From Cycas panzhihuaensis (taxonomy: Eukaryota > Plantae > Cycadophyta): DNA of 64,000 bases. The stretch is from the NCBI GenBank assembly GCA_023213395.1, contig CM041465.1:210125741-210189740 (forward strand), read 5' to 3'. Position 1 is the first letter of the stretch. Every line of letters begins with the position of its first letter. The position numbers were made by a program, and so were the translations under genes. The notes beneath the pieces are model-generated. The model searched no databases and had not been told where the DNA came from. It worked only from the letters and a program-made list of their open reading frames with translations. Shown piece after piece: positions 164 through 1,911 of this stretch.

Positions 164-706
164 TGAGTTTTGAGAGGCAACCATCCTCCTTCTTAGGATA
201 GCACCTCTCAAACCTTGGGTGTGTATGTTTTATCCATAAGCATAAAGATATTATACTTGCCATATAGTTTTTTTGTTATTTTTTTTTTGCTTACTTTACC
301 TCTTTGGAGTAGTTGATTGTAGAGAATGCCAGGGTTTCATAAATTTCATTTAATTCCACTAAATTAATCAAATGGATCAACATCTAAACTATAGGAAATT
401 CCACTAGGCATCATGTGTCAGTCTAGAATGTAATTTGTTCAACTCTTATTGGTGCATTTTATGATGTTTTCTATTTTCTAAAACTTGAATGAACCTTTCT
501 AGTAAAATTTGCCTAAAGTTTTGGATTTCAAGATTAAATTTCTAAATTTCAATTATTTTTTCCCATCGTTAAGATTTATTTATGAGCGGGATGCATTGTG
601 CACTTAAGTCAACTATCTGGTCATTAGAAGTCATTAATTAGGGTTTCAAACCACTTACCTACATTTTGCCCTAATAATTTCTTCTATTTTATCTAGAGAA
701 ATACAA

Positions 707-981
707 ATGGCAAGTAGAATAAAGGAAGACAAGAAGAATGGGAAGATTATACATAGTCCTCTCAAGCTTAATGCCAATCATAGATGTATTAACTATAATA
801 GCCTAGGACCCCAATACATCTGCACTAATTTTTGGACATTTGTTTGCACAATTTATAGTGGGATTCATTGGGAATTCACATACCATGTGAAATCCATATC
901 CATAGTGAAATCTACCTTACAAGAAGTGAGTTCTCTTTAAGCAAGAGTTTTATGAGAGTGCATAAGAGTTATTTTAGGAAA
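707..981 (+). pseudogene. AGD14: Captured intronless fragment of an ArfGAP AGD14/NIG-like gene (N-terminus, probably with 5' UTR from ~640)
   Basis: MASRIKEDKKNGKIIHSPLKLNANHRCINYNSLGPQYICTNFWTFVCTIYSGIHWEFTYHVKSIS matches the family N-terminus M.NR.KEDE.NE.IIRGLLKL..NRRCINCNSLGPQYVCT.FWTF.CT.CSGIHREFTHRVKS.S. Two zinc-finger Cys are mutated and there is a stop at 938-940. Confidence 0.9.
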
Positions 982-1206
982 ATTTCAGTAGATAACACTG
1001 TACCTATTTGGTATAACATGGCTGCCCAAGTTCTTATGAAAATATTGATTTTCTCTTTCTAGATGAATCTAAATGTTGATGATGAAAAGGGAGGAGAGAT
1101 TATCTTTAGAGGTGTTGATCCAAATAATTTTAAGGGTGAACACACATTTGTGCCTATTATGCGTGAGGGTTATTGGCAATTTGACATAGGAGACGCTCTC
1201 ATTGAT
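973..1206 (+). pseudogene. Captured intronless internal fragment of a phytepsin-type (A1) aspartic protease
   Basis: [77 protein letters not shown] matches F.EISVG.AVPVWYNM..QGL...VFSFWLNR....EGGE.VFGGVDP.HFKG.HTYVPVT.KGYWQFDMGD. Confidence 0.92.
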
Positions 1207-1243
1207 AGATTAGTGTAAATATTCATTCTCTATTATACATTAA

Positions 1244-1911
1244 ATGGCTTTCATTGTAGCTCTCTATGCCATGCCTATGGTTGTTATAGATAATTCTCAA
1301 GTGAATCCATCTTTGAAGAAATTCGATGGCATGAGAATTGGCCATGTATTTAATAGGAAGAAAGAGACTCCTTTTCCCATATTCAAGTCAGTCAGCAAAG
1401 TTAATATGGCTATTGTGGCAAATGTTTCCTATTTTGAGGTGTTGACCATGGCTCTACCAGATCCAATCTTGGGTGTTTCATAAGTATTTAAAGTAGACAC
1501 AAATGATTTAAAGCTTAATCTTGGTGTGGGTGCCTACAAAACAAAAGAACTTCATCCTTATGTGCTGAATGTGGTAACAAAGGTAGAGAAGTTGATATTG
1601 GAAAAAGGAGAAAATAAAGAGTATCTTCCCATTGAATGGTTAGCTACATTCAATAAAGTTACTACATAATTATTACTAGGAGCAAACATCTTGCAATCAA
1701 AGAAAGAAGGGCTACAATAGTGTAAAGCCTTTCAAGAACTAGCTCTCTTCACCTTATTACCACATTAGTCCAAAGATATTTTCCTAGAGATAAAAAGTTC
1801 TATTCTCATCTCCAACTTGGGGGAATCACAAAAACATTTTCAATGATGCTGGGGTTCCTTAGTTAGAGTATAAATACTATGATCTCAAAACCGTTGGGCT
1901 AGATTTTGAAG
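1244..1911 (+). pseudogene. ASP5: Captured intronless fragment of plastid aspartate aminotransferase (transit peptide plus N-terminal part)
   Basis: Reads ...TMALPDPILGVS*VFKVDTNDLKLNLGVGAYKTKELHPYVLNVVTKVEKLILEKGENKEYLPIE...SSPTWGNHKNIFNDAGVP*LEYKYYDLKTVGLDFE, with stops and frameshifts. Confidence 0.93.

What the first reader, a model, noticed from the sequence alone, without database searches (positions are those of the whole stretch)
640..1911. Non-autonomous LTR element whose interior is a three-gene spliced-mRNA mosaic (AGD14 + phytepsin + ASP5)
Seen: between PBS and PPT there is no gag/pol, but three unrelated host-gene fragments lie head to tail, all sense to the element and without introns. 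Two include their ATG. Established: these gene families are intron-rich, and LTR reverse transcriptases can switch templates onto co-packaged mRNAs. Inference: an LTR-based, Pack-MULE-like exon-shuffling vehicle that transposed after serial captures and could produce siRNAs against three housekeeping genes.
Basis: partly seen in the sequence, partly recalled or inferred. Interest (0 to 1): 0.8.

Follow-up and report, generated by a model that had tools for sequence, protein, structure and literature searches.

The report
Jumping gene carrying four mRNA pieces
A decayed LTR jumping element with no enzymes of its own, likely from a gymnosperm, holds head-to-tail pieces of four host transcripts, likely picked up when reverse transcriptase switched templates and likely copied on afterwards; such chimeras are already described in maize and animals, so this is a good example rather than a new mechanism.

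Summary
The element has two LTRs (90% alike), a primer-binding site and a decayed polypurine tract, and no gag/pol. Between them lie sense pieces of AGD14, a phytepsin-type protease and plastid aspartate aminotransferase (ASP5). A fourth transcript piece follows at 1908-~1990 (RRN3-like by recall only). All four match contigs of a transcriptome-like run of the same species label at 84-94%. The ASP5 piece crosses four intron sites conserved in 6 of 6 land-plant loci aligned, and the host contig graph shows one of them; intron loss in the other pieces is inferred. The AGD14 piece likely starts near 317, not 640. Diverged DNA copies share the joints, so the mosaic was likely copied after assembly. 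Best reading (0.85): a Bs1-type LTR-mediated chimeric retrocopy made by reverse-transcriptase template switching, now a pseudogene. It is not Pack-MULE-like. The siRNA idea is untested and weak for this copy: no perfect 21-mer in AGD14 658-912. Three- and four-parent LTR chimeras are in print, and this scan noted one- and two-gene cases in fish genomes. Verdict: new member of a known kind.

The parts
1..150 (+). 5' LTR, right part only (the window starts inside it; its left ~185 bases and the left target-site copy are outside)
   Evidence: 90% to 2882-3030; 11 transitions and 3 transversions in 149 sites, K2P 0.10
153..163 (+). Primer-binding site of the initiator-tRNA-Met type (type recalled)
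   Evidence: TGGTATCA two bases behind the LTR end
164..316 (+). Element leader, non-coding, multi-copy
   Evidence: No Pfam match; contigs of depth 52.8 and 21.7 cover 201-635 and 202-610 in X1
317..706 (+). Likely 5' untranslated leader of the AGD14 transcript (laid directly only from 627; 317-626 inferred)
   Evidence: The AGD14 RNA contig matches from 627; its next 30 upstream letters match 597-626 at 22 of 30 by eye; it has 318 more letters, enough to reach ~309. Three low-depth, gap-free DNA contigs in three runs begin at 317 with unlike sequence before
707..977 (+). AGD14 (ArfGAP) coding piece from the ATG; decayed (2 of 4 zinc cysteines and the HREF arginine changed, stop at 938); end ~977 read by eye
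   Evidence: RNA contig 627-947 with 43 differences and 1 gap
978..1204 (+). Internal piece of a typical (phytepsin-type) aspartic protease mRNA
   Evidence: PDB and Pfam; RNA contigs 978-1041 and 1092-1204, the second going on as protease sequence
1207..1911 (+). Plastid aspartate aminotransferase (ASP5) piece: short leader, ATG 1244, transit peptide, to about aa 222; stops and two frameshifts; intron sites 1582|1583, 1621|1622, 1710|1711 and 1821|1822 are closed
   Evidence: RNA contigs 1207-1583 and 1581-1911
1908..1990 (+). Piece of a fourth transcript (2665-nt contig, depth 480); RRN3-like by recall only; overlaps the ASP5 piece by 4 bases (GAAG)
   Evidence: 8 differences in 72 bases over 1908-1979; both loose ends read open in the window's frame by eye; no Pfam or useful PDB match
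1991..2686 (+). 3' interior of the element, non-coding; its last ~200 bases are highly repeated; may hide further untranslated captures
   Evidence: No Pfam match; summed contig depth 900-3550 over 2497-2704 against 4-6 for the near-identical contigs
2687..2696 (+). Decayed polypurine tract
   Evidence: ATGAGGAGA before TGTTAG; sister contigs show a run of G at this place (table 7)
2697..3030 (+). 3' LTR, 334 bases, TG...CA
3031..5200 (+). Flank: decayed pol of an older Ty3/gypsy-type element into which this element is likely inserted
   Evidence: RT_RNaseH, Integrase_H2C2 and SH3_Tf2-1

Best explanation
This is a decayed LTR element of about 3.2 kb without gag or pol whose interior holds sense pieces of four host transcripts, likely gathered by reverse-transcriptase template switching inside retrotransposon particles and likely copied onward by an autonomous partner. 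Shown: the anatomy, the identity of three cargo genes, the match of all four pieces to transcript-like contigs, closed intron sites in ASP5, shared joints in diverged DNA copies, and decay. Inferred mechanism: minus-strand synthesis runs from the 3' LTR leftwards. It leaves the element for the fourth transcript (~1990), moves to ASP5 RNA through a 4-base overlap (1908-1911), likely runs to the 5' end of that RNA (~1207), and jumps to the protease RNA (1204). It then moves to AGD14 RNA at a likely microhomology (~973-981), likely runs to that RNA's 5' end (~317), and returns to the element leader and primer site. The captures probably came in several rounds, with sister elements trading cargo. 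The copy then inserted into an older gypsy element, was likely methylated, and decayed. It likely makes no protein.
For: Anatomy. Cargo. Splicing: GT-AG introns after aa 113, 126, 156 and 192 in 6 of 6 land-plant ASP5 loci aligned (5 distinct) are closed in the window. Two conifer-cluster proteins run out of the exon at the aa-113 site. The host RNA contigs break at 1583 and 1581 around a 57-base link, which fits an intron at 1582|1583 (my reading of the contig geometry). No run of 7 or more A in 1-3100, and each piece stops inside its gene. Diverged DNA contigs (about 83-84%) span the joints: 201-635 (leader/AGD14), 787-1021 (AGD14/protease), 1132-1323 (protease/ASP5), and 1645-2062, 1614-2111, 1430-2012, 1762-2069 (ASP5/fourth). 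Of 121 kinds-of-change places against the RNA run, 87 are window T or A for RNA C or G and 13 the reverse. The mechanism is in print: PMC5131818 (passages).
Against: No genome is held, so the parent genes, whole sister elements and the target-site duplication were not seen; the sister copies are short contigs. Intron positions for AGD14, the protease and the fourth gene were not obtained (searches found no loci). X14 is RNA only by the tool's guess, and contig ends cannot prove transcript starts. The microhomologies are short: 4 bases at one joint, read from protein similarity at another, and none seen at 1204-1207. An 8-base word (CTAGATTT) occurs on both sides of the fourth piece, though its left copy is ASP5 coding sequence. 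Of 23 deamination-type changes in AGD14, 10 are in CHH context, so methylation is not the whole story. An intronless ASP5 contig of depth 9-40 with the mRNA's net frame, seen in 4 of 4 DNA runs, is not explained.
Confidence: 0.85

Rival explanations
1. Same end product, but the cargo came from intronless retrocopies or sister elements already in the genome, joined by recombination between elements rather than from fresh cellular mRNA at each step.
For: DNA contigs continue the protease past 1204 like the mRNA, with 2 of 30 letters changed (one gives a stop). Other DNA contigs carry more of the fourth gene 5' of the joint. Protease and ASP5 segments have contigs of depth 30-47.
Against: This still needs an RNA step for each piece. 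The ASP5 and AGD14 pieces begin at or near the 5' ends of the transcript contigs, as direct copying of mRNA would give. It largely merges with the best reading as its later rounds.
Confidence: 0.08
2. Independent LINE-made retrocopies inserted one after another into an existing LTR element.
For: Spliced pieces of abundant mRNAs; an 8-base word on both sides of the fourth piece.
Against: No poly(A). All four pieces are cut short at the 3' side and two keep the 5' side, the reverse of the LINE pattern (pattern in PMC5131818, passage). The pieces abut within 0-4 bases with no element DNA between, all in one orientation. The longest words shared by the flanks are 4-8 bases.
Confidence: 0.03
3. Segmental duplication, not retrotransposition, made the extra copies of one ancient chimera.
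For: No whole sister element or flank was seen; gymnosperm genomes have many TE-mediated duplications (PMC13477047, section 10).
Against: Sister contigs are about 83-84% alike while this copy's two LTRs are 90% alike, which fits copies with separate histories, though the LTR is AT-rich and may change more slowly; some cargo contigs are deep.
Confidence: 0.03
4. DNA-level capture (Pack-MULE or Helitron type) of genomic exons.
For: Several gene pieces in one orientation inside a transposon.
Against: Four conserved introns are absent; the ends are direct LTRs, and none of the 23 inverted-repeat pairs brackets the cargo.
Confidence: 0.01

Closest known systems
Maize Bs1 (Elrouby and Bureau 2001, 2010; seen only through PMC13317346 section 5 and passages of PMC5131818 and PMC8764390; the 2010 paper is not held)
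   Same: LTR element whose interior holds pieces of three unlinked host genes; several copies share the switch points.
   Different: Bs1 has 1-5 copies and a transcribed and translated hybrid frame. Here there are four pieces in a likely gymnosperm, two kept to about their 5' ends, and the frames are broken.
LTR-mediated chimeric retrocopies of animals (Tan et al. 2016, PMC5131818; passages read)
   Same: Internal frames replaced by partial mRNA copies, short shared words at joints, further copying as non-autonomous elements, and a four-parent 'Super retrocopy'.
   Different: Those are young and transcribed; this is old and decayed, and its transcription was not shown.
TE-captured gene fragments across gymnosperm genomes (Bao et al. 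2026, PMC13477047; abstract and sections 10, 12, 16 read)
   Same: About 400,000 captured coding fragments per genome; on average 13.68% of carrier TEs hold two or more; first and second exons are favoured; Gypsy and Copia examples.
   Different: In the sections read, that survey counts fragments and does not resolve joints, splicing or order for a family like this one; its supplements were not seen.
Pack-MULEs (features recalled)
   Same: Carry pieces of several host genes.
   Different: DNA transposons with terminal inverted repeats and genomic cargo; here LTRs and spliced cargo.

Membership tests
LTR-mediated chimeric retrocopy (Bs1 type) | Two LTRs of one family in direct orientation with primer site and polypurine tract | tested here: met
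   the 5' LTR is only partly in the window
LTR-mediated chimeric retrocopy (Bs1 type) | Element's own coding region replaced by host sequence | tested here: met
   no gag/pol match in 12 of 12 frames outside the cargo
LTR-mediated chimeric retrocopy (Bs1 type) | Cargo crosses exon-exon junctions: ASP5 | tested here: met
   four intron sites in 6 of 6 loci closed in the window; host contig break at 1583/1581
LTR-mediated chimeric retrocopy (Bs1 type) | Cargo crosses exon-exon junctions: AGD14, protease, fourth gene | tested here: inconclusive
   collinear with transcript contigs, but no genomic locus found; typical A1 proteases average 10.33 introns (PMC9937552, passage)
LTR-mediated chimeric retrocopy (Bs1 type) | Partial copies without poly(A) or their own target-site duplications | tested here: met
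   one 8-base word noted
LTR-mediated chimeric retrocopy (Bs1 type) | Microsimilarity at switch points | tested here: inconclusive
   4-base overlap at 1908-1911; likely ~9 bases at 973-981 from F-K-E in both proteins; none seen at 1204-1207; not tested against chance
LTR-mediated chimeric retrocopy (Bs1 type) | Further copies share the switch points | tested here: met
   diverged contigs across four joints; whole elements not seen
LTR-mediated chimeric retrocopy (Bs1 type) | Target-site duplication around the element | not testable with these tools
   left end outside the window; no genome held
LTR-mediated chimeric retrocopy (Bs1 type) | Co-transcription from the LTR | tested here: inconclusive
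   none of the 7 X14 records listed in table 8 (of 8 laid) bridges a joint; one run of contigs only
Pack-MULE | Terminal inverted repeats and genomic (intron-bearing) cargo (recalled) | tested here: not met
LINE-made processed pseudogene | 3'-anchored copy with poly(A) and target-site duplication | tested here: not met
TRIM | Very short terminal repeats and an interior of a few hundred bases (sizes recalled) | tested here: not met
   LTR 334 bases, interior ~2550 bases

The most novel reading that the evidence does not exclude
A high-copy gymnosperm LTR family that works as a modular mRNA collector. Reverse transcriptase runs captured mRNAs out to their 5' ends and jumps on, sister elements swap cargo, and a deep, intronless, frame-keeping ASP5 version shared by three organism labels marks a young or conserved branch that is still amplified or expressed and can touch the parent genes. 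A second chimera in the same 64 kb (Alfin piece inside an adrenodoxin-reductase piece, one open frame, inside a copia element) suggests that such shuffling is dense enough to study as a population.
Probability: 0.2. Interest if true: 0.7.

Novelty: new member of a known kind. Interest (0 to 1): 0.42.

Why it matters
It is a well-resolved plant case of multi-gene capture by an LTR element: four parents within 1.7 kb, joints placed to a few bases against transcript contigs, and sister copies that could give the order of captures. In the papers seen, Bs1 is the standing plant example with three parents. If the two captures that reach the mRNA 5' end are typical, that would give a testable reason for the bias towards first and second exons that Bao et al. 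2026 report in gymnosperms and call poorly understood. This copy itself is likely a dead fossil.

Tried and rejected
No whole genome is held, so there was no genome-wide LTR catalogue. The protein search with the protease piece found 0 of 8 candidates. Scans of prokaryote genome contigs for plant AGD14 and protease loci found none (77 and 176 pattern matches, 0 confirmed). N-terminal alignment of the 83 AGD14 hits showed no indel inside the captured coding span; one model (P0076) leaves the family after GGNQR, a weak hint of an exon end near 956. The fourth piece gave no Pfam match and one chance PDB row, so its name rests on recall. The profile-wide protein search was never run because the queue was full; the language-model atlas gave no result. 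Rfam over 1-3100 gave one chance row (E 0.5). No RNA holder of this copy was listed, which says nothing on expression. Run X12 gave only short diverged pieces. Loose ends ending in AG at 1399 and 1850 looked like splice acceptors but, by eye, are decayed continuations of ASP5, not introns. No parental exon with intron ends was seen among the rows shown; the tables were cut (60 and 2203 loose-end rows not shown). A tree put the ASP5 piece with Ginkgo and conifers without strong support (84/82); the lineage is not pinned down. No structure or complex prediction was run, as the frames are broken. This scan had no earlier notes on this genome.

Full report
Observation. The window opens inside an LTR: bases 1-150 match 2882-3030 at 90%, with 11 transitions and 3 transversions in 149 sites. 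The complete right-hand LTR is 2697-3030 and reads TG...CA. TGGTATCA follows the left LTR at 153-160, and a purine tract precedes 2697; sister contigs show a run of G there. Six-frame Pfam scans of 151-706 and 1908-2696 found no gag or pol; 1 of 12 frames gave a sub-threshold LRR hit. The right flank is decayed gypsy-type pol. The left end of the element is outside the window and no genome is held, so the target-site duplication cannot be tested.

Cargo. Bases 707-937 translate to the N-terminus of AGD14-type ArfGAPs, up to 75% identical, with 83 of 92 candidates at E<=0.001. Two of four zinc cysteines and the arginine of HREF are changed. About 970-1203 is a typical aspartic protease: procardosin B E 2e-29, prophytepsin E 1.5e-25. 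From 1244 to about 1911 lies plastid aspartate aminotransferase with its transit peptide, broken by stops and two frameshifts. The best hits are a Picea-containing cluster and Ginkgo. A tree of 23 rows groups the piece with gymnosperms without strong support.

Real DNA. Contigs of other samples span 687-1449 with 9 differences and 687-1317 with 7; one from a second organism label spans 1088-1449 with 22. The mosaic is therefore not an assembly error.

Spliced origin. One search fetched 80 ASP5-related loci. I screened 16 and made spliced alignments for 6 intron-bearing land-plant loci, two of which have the same junction letters. All 6 have GT-AG introns after residues 113, 126, 156, 192 and 229 of the conifer-type protein; 3 of 6 also have one near residue 48-50. 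The first four sites map to 1582|1583, 1621|1622, 1710|1711 and 1821|1822 and are closed in the window; the fifth lies beyond the end of the piece. Two short conifer-cluster proteins end just after the residue-113 site. In run X14, RNA by the tool's guess and of the same species label as the best DNA holder, the ASP5 contigs end at 1583 and begin at 1581 around a 57-base link. By my reading that is the geometry of a retained intron at 1582|1583 in the host's own gene. For AGD14 and the protease I obtained no genomic locus. Their pieces are collinear with transcript contigs, and typical A1 proteases average 10.33 introns (PMC9937552, passage), so intron loss there is inferred.

Joints and a fourth gene. 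X14 contigs match 627-947 (86.6%), 978-1041 (84.4%), 1092-1204 (87.6%), 1207-1583 (86.5%), 1581-1688 and 1769-1911 (89.8% and 93.7%) and 1908-1979 (88.9%). The last is a separate 2665-base contig. Its two loose ends translate by eye to PVKVCLPSVV and LETQESKAFG in the window's frame. From recall this resembles the C-terminal part of plant RRN3, but Pfam and the PDB did not confirm it. It overlaps the ASP5 piece by four bases. The ASP5 contig's own end falls at 1206-1207, two bases from the end of the protease match. The AGD14 contig has 318 more letters upstream of 627; the first 30 match the window at 22 of 30 by eye, and three low-depth DNA contigs in three runs begin at 317 with unlike sequence before it. 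So two pieces likely start at or near their mRNA's 5' end, though contigs cannot prove a start. By eye, AGD14 similarity goes on to about 977-980, where both AGD14 and prophytepsin read F-K-E, a likely microhomology. There is no run of seven A in 1-3100, and the longest words shared by the flanks of the four pieces are 5, 4, 6 and 8 bases.

Copying after capture. Contigs about 83-84% alike to the window cross the joints: 201-635 (depth 52.8), 787-1021 (depth 16.3), 1132-1323, 1645-2062, 1614-2111, 1430-2012 and 1762-2069. These are among the few rows shown of 2113, 1853, 2493 and 2649 contigs laid, and only about half of each run was read. The last 200 bases of the interior and the LTR have summed depths in the hundreds to thousands against 4-6 for the near-identical contigs; depth is not a copy number, but the family is large. 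Two X1 contigs continue the protease past 1204 like the mRNA with 2 of 30 letters changed, one giving a stop. Two carry more of the fourth gene upstream of the joint, by eye with a 13-base gap that would give them seven bases in common with the ASP5 end. These hint at simpler sister elements and serial capture; no whole sister was seen. Unexplained: an intronless ASP5 contig with the mRNA's net frame and depth 30.1, 9.2, 31 and 40.3 in 4 of 4 DNA runs.

Decay and siRNA. Against X14, 87 of 121 changed places are window T or A for RNA C or G, and 13 the reverse, as expected of a methylated dead copy; among 23 such changes listed for AGD14, 8 are CG, 5 CHG and 10 CHH. Using the 34 listed substitutions and one indel (of 43 differences in that contig), the longest identical run over 658-912 is 20 bases, and 0 of 235 21-mers are perfect. 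siRNAs from this copy would thus be mismatched there; younger sisters could differ. In Platycladus, syntenic donor genes showed only marginally higher methylation and no marked loss of expression (PMC13477047, sections 12 and 16). No small-RNA data were available.

Mechanism. The best reading (0.85) is template switching during reverse transcription in a retrotransposon particle, in several rounds, followed by mobilisation in trans. Shown: anatomy, cargo, closed introns in ASP5, shared joints, decay. Inferred: the switching itself, run-off at mRNA 5' ends, order of captures, and retrotransposition rather than segmental duplication of the copies. LINE insertions and DNA-level capture fail their defining tests.

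What is known. Maize Bs1 carries pieces of three genes, and its copies share switch points (PMC13317346 section 5; PMC5131818 passages; PMC8764390 passages; the original 2010 paper was not held). Tan et al. 2016 set out the template-switch model and mention a four-parent retrocopy. Bao et al. 2026 report about 400,000 captured fragments per gymnosperm genome, with 13.68% of carrier TEs holding two or more, and a preference for first and second exons. Six paper searches showed no listing for this particular element. The library lacks most subscription papers, and I did not open the supplements of Bao et al. (capture tables) or Tan et al., which may bear on how common such mosaics are. This scan noted one- and two-gene LTR captures in cartilaginous fish genomes (unchecked notes).

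Verdict. Observation confirmed and extended to four transcripts. Interpretation partly supported. New member of a known kind; interest 0.42.

Noticed in passing
window 15444-16004 (+), inside the LTR pair 7931-8286 / 16804-17156: One open frame of 186 aa holds an Alfin-like piece (aa 41-67, PDB E 1e-4, Pfam E 1.6e-4) between two weak matches to adrenodoxin reductase (aa 3-62 and 143-179, whole-sequence E 0.0016). It lies opposite in sense to a Ty1/copia element on the minus strand (gag-pol pieces 9113-12186; LTRs 88.5% alike). Likely a second captured-gene chimera, with one gene's piece set inside another's.
   Followed up: partly
window 1511-1922, contigs of X1, X2, X4, X5: A deep (9-40) intronless ASP5 contig with the same indels against the window in 4 of 4 DNA runs, and the mRNA's net frame; young sister family, retrogene or array unknown.
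   Followed up: partly
window 1062-1212, contigs of X1: Protease-piece contigs of depth 46.6 and 36.8; several share a decayed codon near 1031 with the window by eye, pointing to an amplified family of protease copies.
   Followed up: partly
window 690 and 1937, contigs of X5: Contigs that leave the window's sequence after ~690-705 (3 contigs, mixed consensus) or join it at 1937 (2 contigs) from other sequence; possible sister elements with other cargo.
   Followed up: no
window 626-635: A TAGGGTTT word in the likely AGD14 leader, the reverse of the telo-box common in leaders of plant housekeeping genes (motif recalled).
   Followed up: no
window 2193-2292: Two 46-base direct copies 54 bases apart (72% alike) in the 3' interior, in a stretch of high contig depth.
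   Followed up: no
window 21864-22347 / 27074-27562, 43148-43608 / 49840-50286, 17176-18440 / 38136-39397: Further direct repeat pairs (80%, 69%, 66%), likely older LTR pairs and retrotransposon pol; RVT_1 matches at 17254-18011.
   Followed up: no
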